Assembly: GCA_963827755.1 (NCBI GenBank)
Contig: CAWHCQ010000009.1
Coordinates: 1 to 64,000 of the forward strand
Source: an uncultured Gammaproteobacteria bacterium
GTDB taxonomy: Bacteria > Pseudomonadota > Gammaproteobacteria > UBA9214
Reading direction: 5' to 3'
DNA: 64,000 bases
Numbering within the stretch: the stretch's first letter is position 1; each line of letters opens with the position of its first letter. Shown here piece by piece: positions 8,734-56,825 of this stretch. The notes beneath the pieces are model-generated. The model searched no databases and had not been told where the DNA came from. It worked only from the letters and a program-made list of their open reading frames with translations. The translations under genes were made by a program, and so were the position numbers.

Positions 8734-10029
8734 TTACAGACACAGGGCATGCTGGATCTTTTCCTGCATGGCTGTCGGTACGCCGGCGGCTTCGGCATAT
8801 TCACGCCAGCGCGACACCACCGCGTGCACCTCGTTGACGATGGCCTCGGCGCGCCCGCGTTTCATTGCAGCCGTCCTGGCGCAGGCCTTGAAATCATCGA
8901 GGCTGAAATCACCGCGCTTGCCATTCAGCGTCATCTGGTGGCTGGCCGTCCAGCGGCCGGCAGGATTGTAACTGTAGGTCAGATCAAAGGCCGGTGACAG
9001 CGACCAGTTGCCGGCCTTGTCCATGAGAAAAGCAATGTTCTTCACATGATCATCCTGGTTGCGCGCGATGGCGTTGAACACCATGCGGCGAAACTGTTCC
9101 TCGATGGCGCTCATCGGCAGGCCCAGCCGGCGCATCACCAGCAGCGCCTGTTCATAGGCATAGGCGCCCGCCAGGTTGAAATCATAATGCGCCAGCGCAC
9201 ACAGCGACTGCATGTGCAGTTTCTCGCCACTGGCGAGCCGGTCAAAACGCCGGGTCATGAAATGCCGCCGGCCGTTTTCCTCGAACAGCCGGCATTCGCT
9301 GATATCGATGCCGCAGTCCCTGGCCATTTTGTAATAGGCATATTCAATCACACCGTAACCCTGCGGGTCTTCGAGTTCCTTGTCACGGTTACCGCTGACG
9401 CCATCAAATTTCAGCAGCCAGTATTCAAAACCCGAGCCTGCCGGAAGCTGGCCGGAACGCACCTCGTTGGTCGCCGGGTTCCAGGCAATCACCGCCTTGG
9501 CGCGGGCGCCGCCGGCCGAGGTGCCGACCCGCAGGATATCGGTCATTGCCTGTTCCCGGCCTTCACCGGCAAAGGACACCTGCAGGTCATTGCGATGCGT
9601 GAGCACGCTTGACGCAAGCTCCACCAGCTTGTCGATCTGTATCTGGCTGACCTGCCGCGCACGCGGTCCGATCGCCGGTGTGAATTCCAGCGCCCCCATG
9701 CCGCGCGCACCCGTATAACACAGCCGTTCGAGCGCATTGAACGAAGCAGGCTGGCGGCCCTGGGTGGCCAGCCAGGCATCGATCAGTACATGTCCGAACT
9801 TGTCCGGCAGCGAATCCGCCAGCAGGCCGGGCAAGCCGTAAAAGGTCTCTCTGGATAACCCGGGAAAGGTGTAGACCCGGCCGGACAGCGGCATCATCAG
9901 CGGCGCAAGCTCGATGCCGCTTGCGGCAAACGCCGCATCGTATTCGAAGGCCGCCACCTCGCTGCCCTCCTCCAGCGAAACCGCACCGATCGTACGCCCC
10001 CAGAGCCGGACCTCGGCAACGCTGCTCAT
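8734..10029 (-). CDS. hipA: Type II toxin-antitoxin HipA family kinase toxin
   Basis: HipA N-terminal coupling domain, LPDKFG, TSAGGARAK loop, NQDDHVKN, PAFDL. Confidence 0.93.
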   Translation of the reverse strand: MSSVAEVRLWGRTIGAVSLEEGSEVAAFEYDAAFAASGIELAPLMMPLSGRVYTFPGLSRETFYGLPGLLADSLPDKFGHVLIDAWLATQGRQPASFNALERLCYTGARGMGALEFTPAIGPRARQVSQIQIDKLVELASSVLTHRNDLQVSFAGEGREQAMTDILRVGTSAGGARAKAVIAWNPATNEVRSGQLPAGSGFEYWLLKFDGVSGNRDKELEDPQGYGVIEYAYYKMARDCGIDISECRLFEENGRRHFMTRRFDRLASGEKLHMQSLCALAHYDFNLAGAYAYEQALLVMRRLGLPMSAIEEQFRRMVFNAIARNQDDHVKNIAFLMDKAGNWSLSPAFDLTYSYNPAGRWTASHQMTLNGKRGDFSLDDFKACARTAAMKRGRAEAIVNEVHAVVSRWREYAEAAGVPTAMQEKIQHALCL

Positions 10030-11154: not shown

Positions 11155-11385
11155 ACATCCTCTTTTGCCACGGAAGCACACGGAAATACATGGAAAGACA
11201 AATCGCGACATCTCTTTTGGCCATGGAAGCACACGGAAATACACGGACAAGGTAAATCCACATCTCTTTTGGCCACGGAAGCTAACGAAATGACGCTGAA
11301 ATATCTATCAACATCCCCTCGCACCCAGGGAGTGGGAATTAATCAGGATTTTTATGTAACACGATTTGTTTCCGTGAATTTCGCG
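11155..11385. repeat. Tandem copies of repeat family A, 51-53 nt period
   Basis: ACATCTCTTTTGGCCACGGAAGCACACGGAAATACA-like units at 11155, 11208 and 11260; partial copy at 11311; reverse half-site near 11369. Confidence 0.8.
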
Positions 11386-11439
11386 TACTGTCCCCGATTG
11401 CTTCCTGTTACCAGGATCACCGACATAGAACACCACCCC

Positions 11440-12823
11440 GTGACCGCAACCGCCTTCTCATCACTGCCTTTGACGGCAGAGCTTTTAGCCAACATCAAGT
11501 CACTGGATTACCAGGTGATGACGTTGATACAGGCACAAAGCCTGCCGGCGGTTCTGCAAGGCAGGGATCTGCTGGCGCAGGCGAAAACGGGCAGCGGCAA
11601 AACGGCCGCCTTCGCCATCGGCATCCTGCACAGACTTGAAACAAAAACCTACCGCACCCAGGCACTGGTGCTCTGCCCCACGCGTGAACTGGCCGACCAG
11701 GTCAGCCGGGAATTCCGCCTGCTGGCGCGCGCCATGCCCAACACCAACATCCTCACCCTGTGCGGCGGCAAACAGATGGGCCCGCAACTGGCCTCGCTGC
11801 AGCGCAACCCGCATATCGTGGTCGGGACACCGGGCCGGATATTGAAACACCTGGAAAAAGGCACCTTGAAACATTGACGGGCTGAAGACGCTGGTGCTGG
11901 ACGAGGCCGACCGCATGCTCGACATGGGTTTTCAGGAAGACATCATGCGCATCATCGAGATGACGCCCGCAGCAACGGCAAACCCTGCTGTTTTCCGCGA
12001 CCTACCCGATGAAATAAAAACCATCAGCGATGCCATCCAGACCGATCCCGTCGATGTCCGCGTGGAAAGCCTGCATGACAATAAACAGATCGAACAAATA
12101 TTTTATGAGATCGAAAAAGGCGCACGCACCCGGACACTGGTTGCCCTGCTGCAGCATTACCGGCCTGAATCGAGCGTGGTGTTCTGCAATCGCAAGAATC
12201 AATGCAAGGAACTGGCCGAGGAATTATGGCAACAGGGTTTCCATGCACTGGCCCTGCACGGCGATCTTGAACAATACGAACGCGACCAGGTGCTGGTACA
12301 GTTTTCCAACAAGAGCAGTTCGGTTCTTATTGCAACGGACGTGGCCGCACGCGGACTCGACATCAAGGACCTGCAGGCCGTGATCAACTTCGAGTTGTCA
12401 CCGGACCCGGAAACCCATATTCACCGCATCGGGCGCACCGGCCGCGCCGGCAATGCAGGCCTGGCCCTCAGCCTGTTCATGGCCTCCGAGCGTTTCAGGA
12501 TCGAGGCGATCGAGGCCTTTCAAAACAGCCCGGTCAGCATAGGGGAAACAGGCTCGCTCAAGACGCGGGAGAACTTCAGCCTGAGCCCGCCGATGGTGAC
12601 CCTGTGCATTCAGGGTGGCCGTAAAGACAAGGTACGCGCGGGTGACATACTCGGCGCCCTGACGGCGGATAGCGGCCTGCCGGGAAAACAGATCGGCAAA
12701 ATCGACATCGCCGACAAGCTTGCCTATGTGGCCGTGGAACGCGCAATCGCCAAACAGGCGCTGAAAATCCTCTCCGAAGGAAAAATAAAAGGCCGCAGGT
12801 TCCGGGTCCGAAAACTGCGCTGA
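11440..12823 (+). CDS. dbpA: ATP-dependent RNA helicase DbpA (frameshifts near 11870, 11967 and 12006)
   Basis: AKTGSGKT, PTRELA, DEAD, SAT (after repair), HRIGRTGR and the C-terminal DbpA RNA-binding domain. Confidence 0.93.
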
Positions 12824-27952: not shown

Positions 27953-30707
27953 ATGAACAAGCAGTACGTATTCGGATTCGAGGAAGGCGATGGCCACAAC
28001 AAGATGCTGCTCGGCGGCAAGGGTGCCAACCTGTGCGAAATGACCCAGATCGGTATCAATGTGCCGCCCGGCTTCGTAATCACCACGGAGGCCTGCCTCT
28101 ATTACCTGGAAAATGCCCAGACACGATTTGCCCGTCGGGGTCATGGATGAAGTCCGCGCACAAATGCGGCTGCTCGAGGAGAAAACCGGCAAGACCTTCG
28201 GCGGCAGCGATAATCCCCTGCTGGTCTCGGTGCGCTCCGGCTCGGCCATGTCCATGCCGGGCATGATGGACACCATCCTCAACCTCGGGCTCAACACCGA
28301 CACCCTGAAGGGCCTGATTGCACAGACCGGCAACGAACGCTTCGGCTGGGACGCCTACCGCCGTTTCATCCAGCTGTTCGGCAAGGTTGCGCTGGGCGTT
28401 TCGGACGAGGCCTTCGACGATGTCTTCGACGCCGTCAAGGAAACGGCCGGCGTCAAGGAGGACGTGGCCCTGACGGCCCGCGATCTGCGCGAGATTAGCC
28501 GACCGTTTCCTGGAGGTGGTCGAGCGCGAAACCGGCAGACCCTTTCCGGATGACCCGATGGAACAGCTGGAGATCGCCGTCAAGGCGGTATTCGATTCAT
28601 GGATGGGCAAGCGCGCAATCGACTACCGGCGCGAGTTCCATATCACGCCGGAGATGGCCAACGGCACCGCCGTCAACCTGTGCACCATGGTGTTCGGCAA
28701 CCTCGGCGATGACAGCGCGACGGGCGTGGGCTTTACCCGCTACCCCGACACCGGCGAAAACAGGCTGTTCGGCGAGTACCTGGTGAATGCCCAGGGTGAA
28801 GACGTGGTGGCCGGTATCCGCACCCCGAAGACGATCGACATGCTGGAGCAGGAAATGCCGGACATGTACCGCGAGCTGCAGGTGCTGCGCGAGCGGCTGG
28901 AGTCTCACTACCATGAAGTACAGGACTTCGAGTTCACCATCGAGAAGGGGCGTTTCTACTGCCTGCAGACCCGCAACGGCAAGATGAATGCCGCGGCAAT
29001 GGTGCGTACCTCGGTGGACATGGCGCGCGAGGGTCTGATCGACAAACGCCAGGCGCTGCTGCGCATCGAGCCTGATCTGCTGGAACAACTGCTGTTTCCA
29101 CGGCTCGATCCCGCCGCCCAGCATGCGCCGGTGGCGCGCGGCCTGCCCGCCTCGCCCGGCGCGGCAACGGGACACGCCGTGTTCGATGCCGATCGTGCCG
29201 AGCAGCAGGGGACCCTCGGACAACACGTCATCCTGATACGCGAGGAAACCAAGCCCGAAGACATCCACGGCTTTTTTGCCTCGCAGGGTATTCTCACGGC
29301 GCGCGGCGGCAAGACCTCGCACGCGGCGGTGGTGGCACGCGGCATGGGCAAACCCTGCGTGGCGGGCGCCGAGGGTATTACTGTCGACGTGCGCATGCGC
29401 AAGGCCTTTGTCGGTGGACAGACCATCAGCGAGGGTGACCTGATTACCCTCGACGGCACCACCGGCGATGTCTACCTCGGCACCGTGCCGATGATCGAGA
29501 GCGAATTTTCATCGGAGCTCGGAATCCTGCTGGGCTGGGCTGACGAAACCACCCACCTCAAGGTCATGGCCAATGCCGATACGCCACAGGATGCCGAGCA
29601 GGCGCTCAAATTCGGCGCCATGGGTATCGGCCTGTGCCGCACCGAACGCATGTTCAACGATGCGGCAAGGCTGCCTATCGTGATCGAAATGATCGTGGCG
29701 GATACCACCGGCGACCGGCAGACGGCGCTCGACAAGCTGCTGCCGATCCAGCGCGAGGACTTCAAGGGGATTTTCAAGGCCATGGCGCCGCGGCCGGTGA
29801 CCATTCGCCTGCTGGATCCGCCGATCCACGAGTTCCTGCCGTCTGAACAGCAGCTGGTGGAGGAACTGGACCAGCTGCGTCACCTGAAGGATACCGTGAT
29901 GGGCATGAATATCCTCTCCGATGCCGTGCAAGCTCATCTACAGCGGCCGGGAAGATGCCTGTCATCGGCGACCTGACCGACCCGATGCTGGTCGACGAGG
30001 CGATCGATAAAAAGGATACCATGCTGAAAAAGGTGCGCACCCTGTACGAAGTCAACCCGATGCTGGGTCACCGCGGTGTGCGCCTGGGACTGTCATTCCC
30101 GGAGATCTATTCCATGCAGATCCAGGCCGTACTGGAGGCCGCGGCCGAATGCCGCCAGGAGGGCTTCGAGGTCTCTCCCGAAATCATGGTGCCGCAGGTA
30201 TGCACCTCGCAGGAACTGAAACAGGTGAAGAGCTATGTCGATGCCGTGCACACGGTGGTCGAGGCCAAGTACGGCATAAAGGTCGACTTCAAGTTCGGTA
30301 CCATGATGGAGGTGGTGCGTGCCTGCATGCGCGCCGGCAGCCTGGCCGAAGAGGCCGAGTTCTTCTCTTTCGGCACCAACGACCTGACCCAGGCGACCTT
30401 CTCGTTCTCGCGCGAGGACGCCGAGAACAAGTTCCTGCCGATGTACAACGAACTCGGGATACTGCAGGACAATCCGTTCGAGGTGCTCGATATCAAGGGT
30501 GTGGGCAAACTGATGCAGCTGGCCGTCGAGTGGGGCCGGCAGACACGTCCGGACATGAAGGTCGGCATCTGCGGCGAACACGGCGGACATCCCGAATCGA
30601 TCCGCTTCTGCCACGACATCGGCCTGAGCTACGTCTCCTGCTCGGGCCCGCGCGTCCCGGTGGCGCGCCTCGCCGCCGCCCACGCGGCCCTGGCAAGCAC
30701 ACCCTGA
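27953..30707 (+). CDS. ppdK: Pyruvate phosphate dikinase (frameshifts near 28117, 28500 and 29928-29950)
   Basis: [27 protein letters not shown] phospho-His motif, [24 protein letters not shown]. Confidence 0.95.
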
Positions 30708-51886: not shown

Positions 51887-52255
51887 CTAGTCGCCCTTCT
51901 CTTCCAGCACGCCTGCGGGCAATGTGTAGGGTGTGGCTGCCAGCAGGCTCCCCTGGTAGATGAGACCCGGACAGGGATGGTCGAAATCAACCTGGTGGTA
52001 AATAAATTCGAATACATCGTCCGCCCGGTCTTCCTCGACAACAATAGTGACCACGCGTACCGAATAGGCGGCGACCTGTCTTTTTCTCTTGTATTTCCGG
52101 CGCATCTGCAGACCGAACCCCCGGCAGAGAGAGGTATTTGCCGTGATAATGCCTTTCTTTGTTCGCAGCACCTTGAGCAGTGCCATGTCCTGACCTTCAT
52201 CAGGCAGGATGCAGGTGATAAGTTTTGCCTCTGGAAAATCCTGCAGCCGGGTCAC
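51887..52255 (-). CDS. Divergent P-II-like protein
   Basis: KLITCIL, CRG, VTIVV, PGLIY pattern parallels the upstream P-II; 4-nt overlap. Confidence 0.7.
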   Translation of the reverse strand: MTRLQDFPEAKLITCILPDEGQDMALLKVLRTKKGIITANTSLCRGFGLQMRRKYKRKRQVAAYSVRVVTIVVEEDRADDVFEFIYHQVDFDHPCPGLIYQGSLLAATPYTLPAGVLEEKGD

Positions 52256-52641
52256 GCGCCGTCCCCGTGATGTTTCTTTTCCAGTTGTTCAAGCACTTCT
52301 TCGGGGATATAGGTGGCCGCTTTATCCAGCGGCGTGACATACATGAAGCCCATGCCCGGCGTGTCCAGCTGGCCGGCCAGGTAGATGTTGTTGAATACCG
52401 TTTCCAGTTGCTCGCTGGAGACAACGATGTTGACCACTTCCTTTTCGACTTCCACGGCGACGCCGAGTATGCCAAGCCGTTCCCTGACGCCGCTGCCCCT
52501 GGCATAAAAGATCGTCGCGCCCTGGGCGCCGGCTTCCTGGGCCGCCTGGACGATGGTATCGCCCAGGCCGCGTTGCACGATGCAGGTTATCAGGCGCACA
52601 TCGGTCAACAAGGTGATGCTGTGTCTTGTTTTGTTTGTCAT
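52252..52641 (-). CDS. P-II family signalling protein
   Basis: LITCIVQRG, AGAQGATI, ARGSG, EKE, PGMGFMYV. Confidence 0.85.
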   Translation of the reverse strand: MTNKTRHSITLLTDVRLITCIVQRGLGDTIVQAAQEAGAQGATIFYARGSGVRERLGILGVAVEVEKEVVNIVVSSEQLETVFNNIYLAGQLDTPGMGFMYVTPLDKAATYIPEEVLEQLEKKHHGDGA

Positions 52642-52664
52642 GAGTGAATGTTCCCGGGTCGGCA

Positions 52665-54413
52665 TTATTGCGCAGTTGCCACGGCTGCCGTTTCCAGGCG
52701 TGCCCTCAGCCGAAACCACAAGCCGGTTGCCAGCACTGCAAGGATGGGCCCGATCGAGGCCATGGACAGCATGCCGAAGCCTTCCACCACCTGCACCGCA
52801 TCGCCGACGCCCAGCCCCATGGCCAGTACCAGCGGTACGGTAACGGGGCCGGTGGTCACTCCGGCGCTGTCCCAGGCAATGTTGACGAACTCCTCGCTGG
52901 ACAGCAAGGTGAGCACGATTGCCAGCAGGTAGGTCGGCAGCAACAGCCAGGCGAGCGGCAGGTCATAGATGATCTTGACCATTCCCAGGGCGATGCCGAA
53001 GGCGACCCCGCCGGAGACGGCGTACATCAGGGTGGATTTTCTGAATACCCCCTGGGTCAGGTTCTGCACGGTGAGCCCGAGGGTGTTCAGCGCCGGTTCG
53101 GCCAGGGTGGCGCCGAAGCCGAGAAACCAGGCGAATACCAGCACCAGGCCGAGGCCGATCGTGTAGAGATACAGCGGCGAGGTTTCAACCGCGGCAATCT
53201 GGGTAAACGCTGCCGGCAACAGGCTGCCGGACTCGCTGCCCAGCCTGGACAGTCCGTGAGTCAGTCCCAGGTTGAAGATGCAGATGCCGGCCACTGTCAG
53301 CACGATGCCATAGCCGATCATGCCGGCGTGCCTGATCTTTTCAGCCAGCACCAGTTTCATCACCAGGTAAAGGAACAAAACGAGCGGCAGGATGGCACGC
53401 AGGCCAAGCACGATTTCCCTGCCGGGCGTCGTCTCGTACCAGGCCGGCACGGCCGCAGACTGGCCGCCGGCCGTGGCGGCCAGCATGATGGACTCGACGG
53501 GGACTGCGGCAGTGACGTAAATGGCCAGGCCGAGCACCCCGATGACGGGAAACAGGGAGGCCAGCGTGACAATGCCGAAGCCGGAGAGGCTTGCATTGCC
53601 TTTGCCTGTCGAGGTGGCGATGCCGATGCCCAGGGCAAGGACCAGCGGCACGGTGACCGGACCCGTGGTGACTGCACCGCAGTCCCAGGCGAGCCCCAGC
53701 ACCTTTTGCAGTTCGGGATGGAACGCGGCATACAGCGACAAACCCAGTGCCGGGACCAGGGTGAGATAAATCATCGGCTTGAGACTCCAGCCATAGAGGA
53801 AGCGCAGGGTACCCAGCACCGCGGCCAGGCCGACACCGCAACCCACCACCAGCACCAGGGCACCGGACCGGTCATTGAGAATGGTGTAAAGATAGGGCGC
53901 GGTCTCCACCGCAACGAGCCGGCCCGCGATCTTCAATGCGCCGATGGCCGGCTCCGCCAGGGTAACGCCGACACCGAGCAGAAAGGTAATGGCCAGGACG
54001 ACCGGCAATGCCGATTTGCGCGGCAGGGTATGGCCGATGATCTCGCCAAGCGGCATCAGCCCCAGCTTCAGTCCCTCCATGAACAACATCAATCCAATGA
54101 TCACGCCGAGCAACCCGAAAGCCATGCTCCAGGGTTCACTGACGACCTGGTTGAGAATAAAGACCAGGAACAGGACCAGGTAGGCAGCCAGCGGGATCAC
54201 GACCCTGAACTGCTCCATGAAACGACCCCGGGCATGGGTCTTGATCAGGCGAAAGATATCGAGGGGGCTTAATGTAACCGGCGGCGCAACATGGGGAATG
54301 ATTTTTCCGTTGGCGTCGAAGCTGACGTCAGGCGTGAGCAGGTTGTAGCTAACCTGGTGCTCGACCAGAGAGACATTACGCAGGTATTCACTGTAGCGGA
54401 TGGTGTCTGTCAT
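52665..54413 (-). CDS. DUF1538 double-domain membrane protein
   Basis: Two copies of AEPA...AWD.G.VTTGPVTVPLVLA.G.G. Confidence 0.9.
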   Translation of the reverse strand: MTDTIRYSEYLRNVSLVEHQVSYNLLTPDVSFDANGKIIPHVAPPVTLSPLDIFRLIKTHARGRFMEQFRVVIPLAAYLVLFLVFILNQVVSEPWSMAFGLLGVIIGLMLFMEGLKLGLMPLGEIIGHTLPRKSALPVVLAITFLLGVGVTLAEPAIGALKIAGRLVAVETAPYLYTILNDRSGALVLVVGCGVGLAAVLGTLRFLYGWSLKPMIYLTLVPALGLSLYAAFHPELQKVLGLAWDCGAVTTGPVTVPLVLALGIGIATSTGKGNASLSGFGIVTLASLFPVIGVLGLAIYVTAAVPVESIMLAATAGGQSAAVPAWYETTPGREIVLGLRAILPLVLFLYLVMKLVLAEKIRHAGMIGYGIVLTVAGICIFNLGLTHGLSRLGSESGSLLPAAFTQIAAVETSPLYLYTIGLGLVLVFAWFLGFGATLAEPALNTLGLTVQNLTQGVFRKSTLMYAVSGGVAFGIALGMVKIIYDLPLAWLLLPTYLLAIVLTLLSSEEFVNIAWDSAGVTTGPVTVPLVLAMGLGVGDAVQVVEGFGMLSMASIGPILAVLATGLWFRLRARLETAAVATAQ

Positions 54414-54452: not shown

Positions 54453-55592
54453 CTACCCTTTTTTATGTTCGACTGCGCGCCGGCTTTGCGAGTAGCTCCG
54501 CCAGACCTGCAGCTGGAGTGCGCCAAGCCCGAGGACGAACAGGACGAACACCGCAAGGCCGCCGACCACGGGAATAATCTGCACCAGCAGGAGCGCCAGC
54601 AGCGCGAGCACAATGGAGAACACGCGCAGACCCTTGCCTGCGGTTTTCGCCTTGCCGGTGAGACGCAGGCCGGCGTCGCCCACGTAGATCACGCCGCTGA
54701 GGAATCCGCCGAGCAGGGACACCGAGTACCAGGCAAGCAGGGGCAACGCCACCAGCATGCCGATCACGCTGACCAACAGCAGCAGCACCACGAAGGGGGT
54801 GGCGAACAACACGGCAACGCCGATACCCAGCGCGGTAAGGGGTGATCGCCGCAGGCCATCGGCGCCGGCCACGCTGAAGGCCGGGAACAGCAGGTAATAG
54901 ACGCAGCCCGCCACTGCCAGCGCCACAAGGAAAACGAAACCCGCACCCCTGCCCTGCGGTTCCTTGTAAAGCACAGGCCTGGCAATGATGTCGCCCTCGA
55001 TCACGGCCCCGGCGGCAATGTGCGGTTTATTGTCGCTGCGGTAGACCAGGTTTCCCCTGAGCCTGGCGCCAGGAAAAATGCGGATTTCTTCGGCCATGAG
55101 TTCCACGTCGCCCGCGACGTCGGCAGAGACCGTCACGGCCTGCGCCGCCACCTTGAGTTCCCCGCCCACCTGGCCGGCCACGTTCACTTCCCGCCCCGCA
55201 AGCCACGCCCACCCGCCGATGGTCGCAGCCGGCGTGATGTTGACGGTCTCACCGGCGGCGACGACATGACCCGCGACCAATCCTGCGATGCTGACGGAGC
55301 GCCCGGCCGCGCGCACATCGTCGTCGACCCGTGCCCGGACCGTCACGGTCTCGCCGGCAACCAGCACATCGCCGCCCACCGATTCATCGATCGTGACGCG
55401 ATTCCCCGCCGCGACCACATCACCCTTCGCCTGTGCCATCACATCCACGCTGCGACCGGCAACGTACAGGTCATCTTCTATCGTGCCGCGCTTGACCACC
55501 ACCTCCCCGGTCTCCTGTGCAAACAACAGCGACCCGGTCGACAGTGCAATCAGCAGGCCAGGCAGTGTCCAGAATCTATGACGGTTTCGCAT
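54453..55592 (-). CDS. Bactofilin/CcmA-like beta-helix repeat protein with C-terminal TM helices
   Basis: Signal peptide, repeated GDVVAAG/V-x-V units, about five TM segments. Confidence 0.75.
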   Translation of the reverse strand: MRNRHRFWTLPGLLIALSTGSLLFAQETGEVVVKRGTIEDDLYVAGRSVDVMAQAKGDVVAAGNRVTIDESVGGDVLVAGETVTVRARVDDDVRAAGRSVSIAGLVAGHVVAAGETVNITPAATIGGWAWLAGREVNVAGQVGGELKVAAQAVTVSADVAGDVELMAEEIRIFPGARLRGNLVYRSDNKPHIAAGAVIEGDIIARPVLYKEPQGRGAGFVFLVALAVAGCVYYLLFPAFSVAGADGLRRSPLTALGIGVAVLFATPFVVLLLLVSVIGMLVALPLLAWYSVSLLGGFLSGVIYVGDAGLRLTGKAKTAGKGLRVFSIVLALLALLLVQIIPVVGGLAVFVLFVLGLGALQLQVWRSYSQSRRAVEHKKG

Positions 55593-55605: not shown

Positions 55606-56016
55606 TTATTCCGGCACGCCCTGCCAGAGCATCTGGTAACCCAGTTCGTAGGTCTCGTCGCAGAATTCCGCCAGCGCCTGGAATTTCTCCTTGAATATGG
55701 TGTCGGCGTGCGATTTCTCGTGCTGTTCGAACGACTTCCAGAAAGTCACGATGGCCAGCTCGCCCTGCTTGATCTTCGCGGCGGTCTCGTTATCTTCCGG
55801 TGACTCGCCAACCGTACCCTCTTCGGAAACAAAACCGGAATACTTGTAGACCTGCCCTGCGATGAAGCCGCCATTCTCGTCGCCATAGGTGTTTTTCACG
55901 ACATTGCACATCTCGCCCAGAGCCAGCTCGACGTCTTCAACAGTGACACCGTCCTTCAGGTCAACCACGTTGAACATCATCACGCAGCCGAAGGGTATTT
56001 CAATGGGTGCAAACAT
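55606..56016 (-). CDS. Dimeric alpha-beta barrel protein resembling the N-terminal half of sulfur oxygenase reductase
   Basis: MC..GFIAGQ, TFWKSFEQHEKSH (HxxxH) and a downstream Glu; GGAG RBS. The ORF is solid, the family call is by eye. Confidence 0.6.
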   Translation of the reverse strand: MFAPIEIPFGCVMMFNVVDLKDGVTVEDVELALGEMCNVVKNTYGDENGGFIAGQVYKYSGFVSEEGTVGESPEDNETAAKIKQGELAIVTFWKSFEQHEKSHADTIFKEKFQALAEFCDETYELGYQMLWQGVPE

Positions 56017-56065
56017 ATTCTTTCTCCGTTAGAGCCAAAAATCCAGGGGACAGTATACGCTACCC

Positions 56066-56111: not shown

Positions 56112-56825
56112 TTAACGCGGTGCACGCCAGGGAACAAGCATCGGCACGCGCGACTGGTATTCCCTGTACCTGTCACCGAGTGTTACCACCAGGTCGCGCT
56201 CTTCCAGCAGAGTGCCGGCAATAATCCACGCGCTCCAGAGCACGTTGAACAACAGGCGATCCGCCGTGAGGTCAGGCTGCGACCAGATCATCACAAGGAT
56301 AAAGAAGTATTGCGGATGCCTGACCCATCGATAGGGGCCACGTTCGTCGAGGCAGGCCAGCGGCTCTGATGTGCCGCGCAGATGACAGCTGATCGCCCGC
56401 AAACCGAAGATATCGAATGAGCGCAGCGCCAGGTTGCTCCAGACAATTCCACCGATTGCAGCCACGAACAGGACGCGCATTGCGAGGCGCACCGGGTCGT
56501 TCGCAGTTACCAGCACAGGCTCGGAGACCTGCCAGAGGAACACGACGCCATACAGGCATATTCCGGCGGCGATCGAGTAGGCGGCGCCGTGGTAGTACTC
56601 CGGGGCCAGGCTTGCAAACCACGCCTTGAACACGCGGCGAATCATGCCGCTGTGCTGGGCGAAGAAAACCGCTGAAAGACCCGCATCAAATACCAACACG
56701 GCTGTCGTCTGTTTACAGAAAACCAGCAGTTGCCACGGACCCGTGAAAAGAAAAACGGTAAACGCAACCAGTGCGGTAATTCCAAACAGTGCAGAGAGCA
56801 CCTGTGCAAGCCGGGGTCCGGACAT
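56112..56825 (-). CDS. Isoprenylcysteine carboxylmethyltransferase / MddA-nurim-like membrane methyltransferase
   Basis: FFAQHSGM, FKAW, FDIFGL, GPYRWVRHP, LEERDL, YREY. Confidence 0.8.
   Translation of the reverse strand: MSGPRLAQVLSALFGITALVAFTVFLFTGPWQLLVFCKQTTAVLVFDAGLSAVFFAQHSGMIRRVFKAWFASLAPEYYHGAAYSIAAGICLYGVVFLWQVSEPVLVTANDPVRLAMRVLFVAAIGGIVWSNLALRSFDIFGLRAISCHLRGTSEPLACLDERGPYRWVRHPQYFFILVMIWSQPDLTADRLLFNVLWSAWIIAGTLLEERDLVVTLGDRYREYQSRVPMLVPWRAPR

What the first reader, a model, noticed from the sequence alone, without database searches (positions are those of the whole stretch)
55606..56016. Half-size sulfur oxygenase reductase-like protein retaining the Cys plus 2-His-1-carboxylate pattern
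Seen: a 136-aa protein with C37 followed by GFIAGQ, then TFWKSFEQH99EKSH103, C119 and E124. Established: Acidianus SOR (about 308 aa) uses persulfurated Cys31 and Fe ligands His86, His90 and Glu114; as I recall, in the contexts VCMV..HPGFVGFQ and WKDWKDHEEMH. Order and spacing here match the catalytic half by eye. Inference: a minimal single-domain SOR relative that would dimerise into the barrel, and potentially an unrecognised sulfane-sulfur or persulfide enzyme in mesophilic sulfur oxidisers. This is the best candidate for new biology in the window.
Basis: partly seen in the sequence, partly recalled or inferred. Interest (0 to 1): 0.72.

Follow-up and report, generated by a model that had tools for sequence, protein, structure and literature searches.

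The report
Half-size SOR-like protein of sulfur oxidisers
This small, very strongly conserved and still unnamed gene encodes a one-domain relative of the catalytic half of the sulfur-oxidising enzyme SOR; it is found almost only in sulfur-oxidising bacteria and in some of their phages, so it is a good but untested candidate for a new sulfur enzyme.

Summary
A 136-aa ORF lies at 55606-56016 (minus strand) with C37, H99, H103, C119 and E124 as described. It is a real gene of a large unnamed family with no Pfam, NCBIfam or PDB sequence hit for this protein.

All four key residues are kept in 269 of 273 distinct full-length relatives. The fold is a ferredoxin-like alpha+beta barrel domain, predicted to form a homodimer. 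The best fold matches are ABM monooxygenases, not SOR.

A profile alignment to 12 bacterial SORs matches only SOR's N-terminal half. It puts C37, H99, H103, C119 and E124 on SOR Cys31, His86, His90, Cys101 and Glu114. By score alone the family is about as near to generic ABM proteins.

In a 400-genome class sample, 70 of 72 carriers have DsrA or SoxB. One of the other two has a full SOR. The window's own genome has DsrA and SoxB but no SOR. Gene neighbourhood is not conserved, and T4-like phage contigs also carry the gene.

Function is untested. I favour an iron/cysteine enzyme acting on sulfane sulfur. This scan found the same family before on other DNA (several earlier notes).

The parts
55606..56016 (-). 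136-aa ORF (stop included): single-domain SOR-like / ABM-fold protein, long-loop subtype of the family
   Evidence: ORF and translation; homologues; AlphaFold model, pLDDT 88.5, strand-helix-strand-strand-helix-strand order
55906..55908 (-). codon of Cys37, aligned to the essential Cys31 of SOR
   Evidence: gca on the + strand = TGC; alignment; 273 of 273 relatives keep it
55720..55722 (-). codon of His99, aligned to the SOR iron ligand His86
   Evidence: kept in 271 of 273
55708..55710 (-). codon of His103, aligned to the SOR iron ligand His90
   Evidence: kept in 269 of 273
55645..55647 (-). codon of Glu124, aligned to the SOR iron ligand Glu114, but only in the extended low-confidence part of the alignment
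   Evidence: kept in 273 of 273
55660..55662 (-). codon of Cys119, aligned to SOR Cys101; dispensable in some relatives
   Evidence: kept in 260 of 273, otherwise A/T/S/V
56024..56027 (-). Shine-Dalgarno GGAG, 7 nt before the ATG; the block TAACGGAGAAA recurs before many relatives whose further upstream DNA is unrelated
   Evidence: sequence; upstream regions of 72 loci and the window, read by eye
56048..56065 (-). weak terminator-like hairpin plus T run between the upstream gene (56112-56825) and this ORF; function uncertain
   Evidence: 1 found; 0.5 expected from shuffles

Best explanation
The ORF encodes a cytoplasmic protein of about 15 kDa with one ferredoxin-like (dimeric alpha+beta barrel) domain. 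It is a remote homologue of the N-terminal, catalytic half of sulfur oxygenase reductase (SOR). SHOWN: the gene is real. The family is large, unnamed and very strongly conserved. By alignment it keeps the SOR residues Cys31, His86, His90, Cys101 and Glu114 as C37, H99, H103, C119 and E124. It occurs almost only in genomes with Dsr and/or Sox sulfur oxidation, and on T4-like phage contigs. INFERRED: two copies pair strand 4 with strand 2 of the partner to make the barrel that one full SOR chain makes from its two halves, which would give two active sites. In each site H99, H103 and E124 would hold a mononuclear non-haem iron, and C37 on the neighbouring helix would carry the substrate as a cysteine persulfide or polysulfide. 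With O2 the iron site would oxidise this bound sulfane sulfur to sulfite, possibly with thiosulfate or sulfide as side products, as in SOR. The protein lacks SOR's second half. If it also lacks SOR's 24-subunit cage, the likely substrate is a soluble or protein-bound persulfide/polysulfide rather than bulk S8. The likely role is an oxygen-dependent side route, or a detoxification of excess cytoplasmic sulfane sulfur, in Dsr/Sox sulfur oxidisers. Phages could use it to keep host sulfur oxidation running. My odds: homology to SOR's catalytic half with the site kept, about 0.85; metal binding at that site, about 0.6; a sulfur-oxygenase-type activity, about 0.4.
For: The gene is real and the family is conserved. 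All four residues are kept in 269 of 273 distinct full-length relatives, including 20 of 20 viral ones.

hhalign of 17 family members against 12 SORs fetched here gave P 4.4e-5, probability 69%. Against the SOR N-half alone it gave score 38.0, P 8.4e-6, probability 83.5%. Controls were much lower: C-half 15.2 (P 0.13), reversed N-half 12.7, and 30 column-shuffled N-halves with maximum 16.7 and mean 12.2.

Of 21 aligned columns that are at least 85% conserved in both families, 14 hold the same residue: M1, P8, N16, C37, G50, F51, G61, T91, W93, H99, E100, H103, C119, E124. That set contains every SOR catalytic residue except Cys104.

Pfam SOR is the family that most members touch: 9 of 35 at E<=1, best 9.5e-5.

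The roles of the SOR residues come from passages of PMC7398979. Iron is bound by His86, His90 and Glu114. H86A, H90A, E114A and C31A are inactive. C101A and C104A are about 10-fold reduced.

The model is a ferredoxin-like domain, pLDDT 88.5. The homodimer scored ipSAE 0.80 against a best control of 0.00. That mark was reached by 20 of 30 proteins solved as pairs and 1 of 23 solved as single chains. The runs agree in at least 90% of contacts and partner pLDDT is at least 83. This pass may come from likeness to solved ABM dimers.

Phyletic profile: the family is in 72 of 400 class genomes. Of these, 64 have DsrA and 65 have SoxB, and 70 have one or the other. One exception has a full SOR and the other is only 55% complete. 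Only 2 of 238 genomes without DsrA or SoxB carry the family. The window's own genome has DsrA and SoxB above cut-off and no SOR.

22 IMG/VR contigs carry the gene. Flanks of four of the five I examined hold named phage genes such as rIIA/rIIB, tail fibre and DNA polymerase parts.
Against: No function has been measured for any member.

The window protein has no Pfam, NCBIfam or PDB sequence hit even at E<=10. The best Pfam SOR score of any member is 21.8 bits, below the 25-bit cut-off.

In the profile search of PDB sequences, the 8 SOR entries (E 0.054-0.48) score no better than 19 plainly spurious triosephosphate isomerase entries (E 0.03-1.5).

A mixed profile of 13 ordinary ABM proteins scores nearly as well as SOR: 31.4, P 5.3e-5, probability 66.8%. 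So the special link to SOR rests on the residue signature, not on overall similarity.

E124 pairs with Glu114 only in the low-confidence extension of the alignment, and the spacing differs: H-x20-E here against H-x23-E in SOR. Cys104 has no counterpart, and C119 is lost in 13 of 273 relatives.

I could not check whether the four side chains meet in space. The gene never sits in a sox or dsr cluster in the loci I read. Its recurrent neighbours are thiol-redox and heat-stress genes.
Confidence: 0.45

Rival explanations
1. It is a stress protein of the ABM/Dabb type whose conserved Cys, His and Glu serve another chemistry. Examples would be a metal- or thiol-based sensor or scavenger of peroxide or reactive sulfur species, or a helper in protein quality control. 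On this reading it is common in sulfur oxidisers only because they face such stress, and it is not a sulfur-oxidising enzyme.
For: The best fold matches are ABM and stress-related Dabb barrels. An ABM profile scores almost as well as SOR. Among 80 loci of the short type, a thioredoxin-2 gene lies about 1 kb downstream in 9 and an AhpC/TSA-like redoxin directly downstream in 7. Among 16 loci of the longer (about 150 aa) type, a DegP/HtrA-like protease lies upstream on the same strand in 6, Hsp20 in 5 and DnaJ in 3. In phage locus L120 the gene is followed at once by a phage Hsp20.
Against: It does not explain why exactly the SOR catalytic residues are the invariant ones. It also does not explain why only 2 of 238 genomes without DsrA or SoxB carry the gene, although peroxide and heat stress are universal. 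The neighbour associations are each seen in a minority of loci.
Confidence: 0.3
2. It is a non-catalytic carrier or adaptor. It would bind iron or a sulfane sulfur atom on C37 and hand it to other sulfur-oxidation proteins (the Dsr or Sox relay), or act as a small regulator.
For: The cysteine is invariant. Conservation is as strong as for DsrA: 82-88% identity against 80-86% for DsrA between the window's genome and three genomes of other families. That fits a protein with several partners. It occurs most often where both Dsr and Sox are present, in 59 of 110 such genomes.
Against: There is no conserved gene neighbourhood with any sulfur-relay gene. An invariant His-x3-His plus Glu is more typical of a catalytic metal site than of a carrier. 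No fused forms with carrier domains were found in this family in two searches for longer proteins. The hits there were read-through or chimeric artefacts.
Confidence: 0.15
3. It is an IsdG-type haem-degrading monooxygenase that releases iron or makes a bilin.
Against: The IsdG triad is Asn6, Trp66, His76 (PMC4835899, passages). I aligned the family to three IsdG-like proteins fetched here that carry that triad pattern. Their triad Trp and His fall on S102 and on F112, which is kept in 271 of 273 relatives, not on Trp or His. That alignment is weak (P 0.15) and is anchored on the shared W-x-S motif. The family's own invariant C37, H99, H103 and E124 have no counterpart in IsdG. The phyletic tie to sulfur oxidation is not explained.
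Confidence: 0.04

Closest known systems
Sulfur oxygenase reductase (SOR; EC 1.13.11.55; Pfam PF07682; structures 2cb2, 6m35, 6qpa, 7x9w)
   Same: It belongs to the same fold superfamily. Profile alignment matches only SOR's N-terminal half. By that alignment the essential Cys31, the iron ligands His86, His90 and Glu114, and Cys101 are all kept, as are the surrounding motifs: C...GF, T-x-W-x5-H-E-x2-H, and C...E. The organisms are sulfur oxidisers.
   Different: It is half the size (136 against about 310 aa) and has one domain instead of two fused ones. There is no counterpart of Cys104, and the His-to-Glu spacing is 20 rather than 23. It scores below the Pfam cut-off. SOR is not its best fold match. 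The hosts are mesophilic Dsr/Sox bacteria, and most lack SOR: only 8 of the 72 carriers also have SOR. Whether a 24-subunit cage forms is unknown. Activity is unknown.
ABM-family cofactor-free monooxygenases and Dabb barrels (Pfam PF03992; clan CL0032; e.g. RslO4 7bio, SnoaB 3kg0)
   Different: The window protein has no ABM hit at E<=10. The best member scores 19.7 bits, below the 23.1 cut-off. It has a loop of about 27 residues between strands 2 and 3. It carries an invariant Cys/His/His/Glu set that the ABM profile does not share.
IsdG/IsdI/MhuD haem-degrading monooxygenases
   Different: The triad Trp and His positions are Ser and Phe here.
Persulfide dioxygenase (ETHE1/PDO type). This is a functional analogy only, recalled and not tested.
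   Same: A mononuclear non-haem iron held by two His and one carboxylate that oxidises a persulfide to sulfite with O2. This is the kind of reaction I propose.
   Different: It has an unrelated fold (metallo-beta-lactamase) and no sequence relation. I ran no comparison.

Membership tests
SOR (Pfam PF07682) | Match to the family model above its curated cut-off (25 bits) | tested here: not met
   The window protein has no hit at E<=10. Among 26 members scanned singly, 9 touch SOR; the best is 21.8 bits, E 9.5e-5.
SOR (Pfam PF07682) | Subunit of about 300 aa built of two fused ferredoxin-like halves | tested here: not met
   136 aa, one domain. Two searches for longer relatives found only read-through or chimeric forms.
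SOR (Pfam PF07682) | Iron ligands His86 and His90 (H-x3-H at the start of the second helix) | tested here: met
   H99 and H103 align to them in the confident part of the profile alignment. Kept in 271 and 269 of 273 relatives. The role in SOR is from PMC7398979 passages.
SOR (Pfam PF07682) | Iron ligand Glu114 | tested here: inconclusive
   E124 is invariant in 273 of 273. It aligns to the SOR Glu only in the extended, low-confidence part of the alignment, and the spacing is x20 against x23.
SOR (Pfam PF07682) | Essential Cys31 | tested here: met
   C37 aligns to it and is kept in 273 of 273.
SOR (Pfam PF07682) | Auxiliary Cys101 and Cys104 | tested here: inconclusive
   C119 aligns to Cys101 and is kept in 260 of 273. 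There is no counterpart of Cys104.
SOR (Pfam PF07682) | The four residues form one pocket in space | not testable with these tools
From the order of secondary structure, C37 lies on helix 1, H99 and H103 on the start of helix 2, and E124 mid strand 4. That allows a shared pocket but does not show one.
SOR (Pfam PF07682) | 24-subunit hollow sphere; oxygen-dependent disproportionation of sulfur | not testable with these tools
   Needs purified protein.
Dimeric alpha+beta barrel superfamily (clan CL0032, ABM-like) | Ferredoxin-like strand-helix-strand-strand-helix-strand domain | tested here: met
   [not shown]
Dimeric alpha+beta barrel superfamily (clan CL0032, ABM-like) | Homodimer that closes the barrel | tested here: met
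   Model only. ipSAE 0.80, best control 0.00; strand 123-131 pairs with 55-63 of the partner. The pass may come from likeness to solved ABM dimers.
ABM (Pfam PF03992) | Match above the curated cut-off (23.1 bits) | tested here: not met
   No hit for the window protein. The best member scores 19.7 bits.
IsdG-type haem oxygenases | Catalytic triad Asn6, Trp66, His76 | tested here: not met
   The Asn position is kept (N16, 269 of 273). The Trp and His positions align to S102 and F112. The alignment is weak (P 0.15).

The most novel reading that the evidence does not exclude
This is a so far unrecognised class of sulfur enzyme: the free-standing, single-domain form of the SOR catalytic module. A homodimer with two iron/cysteine sites would oxidise cytoplasmic persulfide or polysulfide sulfur with O2 in mesophilic Dsr/Sox sulfur oxidisers. 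It would be spread between lineages and carried by T4-like phages as an auxiliary sulfur gene. It could resemble the ancestor from which the two-domain, cage-forming SOR arose by duplication and fusion.
Probability: 0.35. Interest if true: 0.85.

Novelty: new variant of a known kind. Interest (0 to 1): 0.72.

Why it matters
SOR is the only known enzyme that attacks elemental sulfur with oxygen without other cofactors. It is known as a large two-domain cage enzyme of thermophiles and a few bacteria.

This half-size family keeps its catalytic residues and is far more widespread. It is in 72 of 400 sampled genomes of the class against 13 of 401 for SOR. More than 584 species genomes matched in one scan. 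It is as conserved as DsrA and sits in free-living and symbiotic sulfur oxidisers such as Thiothrix, Candidatus Thiodiazotropha, Cocleimonas and Ectothiorhodospiraceae bins.

If it is active, it would add an oxygen-dependent step to the standard Dsr/Sox picture of sulfur oxidation. It would give a new phage auxiliary sulfur gene. It would also offer a small, tractable model of the SOR reaction and of how SOR evolved. If it is not a sulfur enzyme, a protein this conserved and this tightly tied to sulfur oxidisers is still worth a name and an assay.

Tried and rejected
1. Direct sequence searches with the window protein against Pfam, NCBIfam and PDB chains gave nothing usable. The triosephosphate isomerase matches are spurious: a different fold and E around 0.03-1.

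2. The alignment A2 contained chimeric rows and was too loose for the genome scan (error). I remade it as A3 and A4.

3. Synteny with the window: 0 to 2 of 80 related loci share any of 12 neighbours of the window gene. So the window's neighbours say nothing about function. These are a bactofilin-like membrane protein, DUF1538 with P-II-like proteins, an ICMT-like protein and a Zn peptidase.

4. The 48-locus 'neighbour' cluster is only the antisense shadow ORF of the gene itself.

5. Fused or longer forms: P0272, P0273, P0307 and P0222 are read-through or chimeric. P0174 and P0258 are repeat proteins matched by composition.

6. INPHARED phage genomes gave no tblastn match. The phage copies are only in IMG/VR.

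7. RNA evidence: two sediment runs held 0.04 of the sampled words. When laid at 85% likeness, their contigs cover 55606-56016 with many differences and diverge at both ORF ends. They are relatives, not this organism. One run is only guessed to be RNA, and contigs cannot show transcription. I count this as no more than a hint.

8. Promoter scan: the one sigma-70-like site lies inside the ORF and the one terminator-like site is weak. Nothing follows from it.

9. Upstream regions of 72 loci and the window show no shared operator by eye, only the ribosome-binding block. I did not test the IscR control named in an earlier scan note.

10. A FastTree of 118 rows has too few columns to resolve much, so I use it only to say that viral copies cluster.

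11. Paper searches were badly framed and returned unrelated papers.

12. The ESM Atlas gave unnamed clusters and one 'putative ABM domain' cluster, which is only a lead.

Full report
OBSERVATION. The minus strand of 55606-56016 holds a 136-aa ORF. I checked the codons on the DNA. GC by codon position (0.58/0.31/0.74) matches the neighbouring genes. A GGAG lies 7 nt before the ATG. The window protein has no Pfam or NCBIfam hit and no meaningful PDB-sequence hit, even at E<=10.

FAMILY AND CONSERVATION. 2986 of 2990 candidate proteins matched at E<=0.001. The 120 listed are 86-94% identical and are named 'hypothetical protein' or nothing. Among 50%-identity representatives, 229 matched at E<=0.001, many of them fragments or frame-shifted.
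- There are at least three subtypes: the window's long-loop form (136 aa), a short-loop form (about 128 aa), and a form of about 150 aa with a Lys/Ala-rich tail.
- NCBI names the 150-aa form 'ligand-binding protein SH3' or 'antibiotic biosynthesis monooxygenase family protein' (Thermocrinis, Burkholderiales).
- In 273 distinct full-length sequences gathered here (161 from protein searches, 92 from genomes, 20 viral), C37 and E124 are kept in 273, H99 in 271 and H103 in 269. All four together are kept in 269. The four exceptions are singleton representatives, at least three of which look error-laden. C119 is kept in 260 and C11 in 207.
- Conservation equals that of DsrA. Against three genomes of other families the protein is 82-88% identical while DsrA is 80-86%.

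FOLD AND ASSEMBLY. AlphaFold2 on a 35-row alignment gave pLDDT 88.5 and pTM 0.80. The order of elements is strand 12-20, helix 26-44, strand 51-58, a long loop, strand 86-93, helices 96-104 and 106-116, and strand 119-128.
- Foldseek against the PDB gave 121 matches at E<=0.001. Those listed are Dabb, ABM, polyketide-cyclase and IsdG-type barrels, and no SOR appears down to rank 50.
- So the fold places the protein in the dimeric alpha+beta barrel superfamily, to which SOR also belongs (clan CL0032 is named in PMC4835899). The fold does not single out SOR.
- A two-copy prediction with iron riding along scored ipSAE 0.80 against a best control of 0.00. The mark was reached by 20 of 30 proteins solved as pairs and 1 of 23 solved as single chains. 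The runs agree in at least 90% of contacts and partner pLDDT is at least 83. Strand 123-131 pairs with strand 55-63 of the partner.
- That pass may reflect likeness to solved ABM dimers. It supports dimerisation but does not show it. The interface list also names residues 1-9, 37, 99-100 and 103-104. I cannot tell whether that reflects the partner's N-terminal arm or the iron.

RELATION TO SOR. I fetched 12 SORs from a 401-genome sample of the class, of which 13 genomes have SOR.
- Local hhalign of 17 clean family members against them gave probability 69% and P 4.4e-5, covering family residues 13-121 and SOR 8-105.
- Against the SOR N-half alone: score 38.0, P 8.4e-6, probability 83.5%. Against the C-half: 15.2 (P 0.13). 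Against the reversed N-half: 12.7. Thirty column-shuffled N-halves gave a maximum of 16.7 and a mean of 12.2, sd 1.7.
- Of 21 aligned columns that are at least 85% conserved in both families, 14 hold the same residue. Among them are C37=Cys31, H99=His86, E100, H103=His90, C119=Cys101 and E124=Glu114. The reference row is numbered two higher than the Acidianus numbering.
- Passages of PMC7398979 state that iron is bound by His86, His90 and Glu114. They also state that H86A, H90A, E114A and C31A are inactive, while C101A and C104A lose about 10-fold.
- Pfam SOR is the family touched by most members: 9 of 35 at E<=1, best 9.5e-5.

LIMITS OF THE SOR LINK.
- No member reaches the Pfam cut-off.
- In the profile search of PDB sequences, the 8 SOR entries (E 0.054-0.48) are mixed with 19 spurious triosephosphate isomerases (E 0.03-1.5).
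- The Glu pairing lies in the low-confidence extension of the alignment, with different spacing.
- A mixed profile of 13 ordinary ABM proteins from related genomes scores 31.4, P 5.3e-5. By score, then, the family is about as close to ABM as to SOR.
- What is specific to SOR is the residue signature.

HAEM RIVAL. Three of the ABM proteins I fetched are IsdG-like. When aligned to the family, their triad Trp and His (Asn6/Trp66/His76 according to PMC4835899) fall on S102 and F112. F112 is kept in 271 of 273 relatives. The alignment is weak (P 0.15), but the shared W-x-S anchor is clear.

DISTRIBUTION.
The 80 best are from Ectothiorhodospiraceae, Thiotrichaceae, Thiothrix, Thiolinea, Cocleimonas, Leucothrix, Candidatus Thiodiazotropha, Sedimenticolaceae, Chromatiales, Arenicellales, Granulosicoccaceae and Poriferihabitaceae records.
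- In the class sample the family is in 72 of 400 genomes, or 59 of 320 genera. DsrA is in 124 of 401 and SoxB in 149 of 400.
- Of the 72 carriers, 64 have DsrA, 65 have SoxB and 70 have one or the other. The two exceptions are G294, which has a full SOR, and G328, which is 55% complete.
- Of 238 genomes with neither marker, 2 carry the family. Carriers make up 59 of 110 genomes with both markers, 5 of 14 with DsrA only and 6 of 39 with SoxB only.
- Fisher's test on DsrA gives an odds ratio of 36, but related genomes are not independent, so I use it only as a description.
- Eight of the 13 SOR genomes also have the family.
- The window's genome (92% complete) has DsrA and SoxB above cut-off and no SOR.

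CONTEXT, TRANSFER AND PHAGES. None of 12 window neighbours recurs beside the gene elsewhere (0-2 of 80 loci). The window holds no sulfur-metabolism gene that I could see.
- Recurrent neighbours of the short type: a small 120-aa protein with an apparent signal peptide just downstream (17 of 80), an ABC ATPase (15), thioredoxin 2 (9) and an AhpC/TSA redoxin (7).
- Recurrent neighbours of the 150-aa type: a DegP-like protease (6 of 16), Hsp20 (5) and DnaJ (3), upstream on the same strand.
- Within the window's own genus three subtypes occur. G367 (DsrA 94% identical to the window genome's) has the short-loop form, only 75% identical. G212 has the 150-aa form. Genomes of other families carry copies 85-88% identical to the window's. 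This points to paralogue replacement or horizontal transfer.
- 22 IMG/VR contigs encode relatives at 51-68% identity. Of the 20 viral copies that entered the full-length set, 20 keep the four residues. In four of the five I examined, the flanks hold named phage genes: rIIA/rIIB, DNA polymerase parts, tail fibre and polynucleotide kinase. In L120 a phage Hsp20 follows the gene directly.

EXPRESSION. This is only a hint. Contigs of two sediment RNA-type libraries cover the ORF at 85-95% likeness and diverge at its ends. They are relatives, and contigs cannot show transcription.

MECHANISM. I commit to the reading under Best explanation: a homodimeric barrel with two sites, iron on H99, H103 and E124, sulfane sulfur carried on C37, and oxidation by O2. 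Shown are the residues, their conservation, the alignment to SOR, the fold and the phyletic tie. Metal binding, the pocket geometry, the dimer in the cell, the substrate and the products are inferred. The thiol-redox and heat-stress neighbours keep a stress-protein reading alive.

KNOWN OR NEW. Full-text searches for a single-domain or phage-borne SOR relative found no paper describing this family. Searches were badly framed and count for nothing. I saw search listings and abstracts, and read passages of PMC7398979 and PMC4835899 only. Subscription journals are largely not covered.

Earlier notes of this scan describe the same family on other DNA, with the same reading. One of them was later marked 'part of it fell', with no detail shown. 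I treated them as leads. I re-tested here the residue alignment, the Dsr/Sox tie and the phage carriage. I did not test the IscR control or the archaeal rhodanese fusion that they mention.

Noticed in passing
G000 (window) against G367 and G212; loci L164, L165: Three species of the window's own genus carry three different subtypes of the family. The window's copy is closer to copies in other families (85-88% identity) than to its congener's (75%), although DsrA is 94% identical between the congeners. This suggests replacement by transfer, possibly through phages.
   Followed up: partly
L099-L114 (150-aa subtype loci) and L120:8427-8939: The 150-aa subtype often follows Hsp20 and a DegP/HtrA-like protease on the same strand (5 and 6 of 16 loci). 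In one phage contig the gene is followed at once by a phage Hsp20. This is a possible heat- or stress-regulon link.
   Followed up: partly
window 56017-56035 and upstream regions of L013-L092: The block TAACGGAGAAA just before the ATG recurs in many relatives whose further upstream DNA is unrelated. A strong translation start that travels with the gene would fit high expression.
   Followed up: no
window 11269-12823 and 28113-30707: A DbpA-type DEAD-box helicase is split into two ORFs. A PEP-utilising enzyme (PEP synthase / PPDK type) is split into three overlapping ORFs. These are frameshifts, either assembly errors or pseudogenes.
   Followed up: no
window 51887-54413, minus strand: A DUF1538 membrane protein (582 aa) is followed by two small P-II-like proteins. 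This is a conserved-looking transporter plus regulator trio of unknown substrate.
   Followed up: no
window 54453-55592, minus strand: The gene directly downstream encodes a 379-aa protein with a signal-like start, many short Val/Ala/Gly-rich repeats of bactofilin-like look and a C-terminal membrane part. It has no Pfam hit. Only 2 of 80 related loci have a relative of it.
   Followed up: no
window 8734-10029, minus strand: A HipA-type toxin kinase gene (HipA_C plus Couple_hipA domains).
   Followed up: no
[not shown]
   Followed up: no
L014 (record titled Halobacteria archaeon MAG): A 3.7-kb contig binned as an archaeon carries a copy 93% identical to the window's protein and is its nearest row in the tree. 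It is most likely a mis-binned gammaproteobacterial contig.
   Followed up: no
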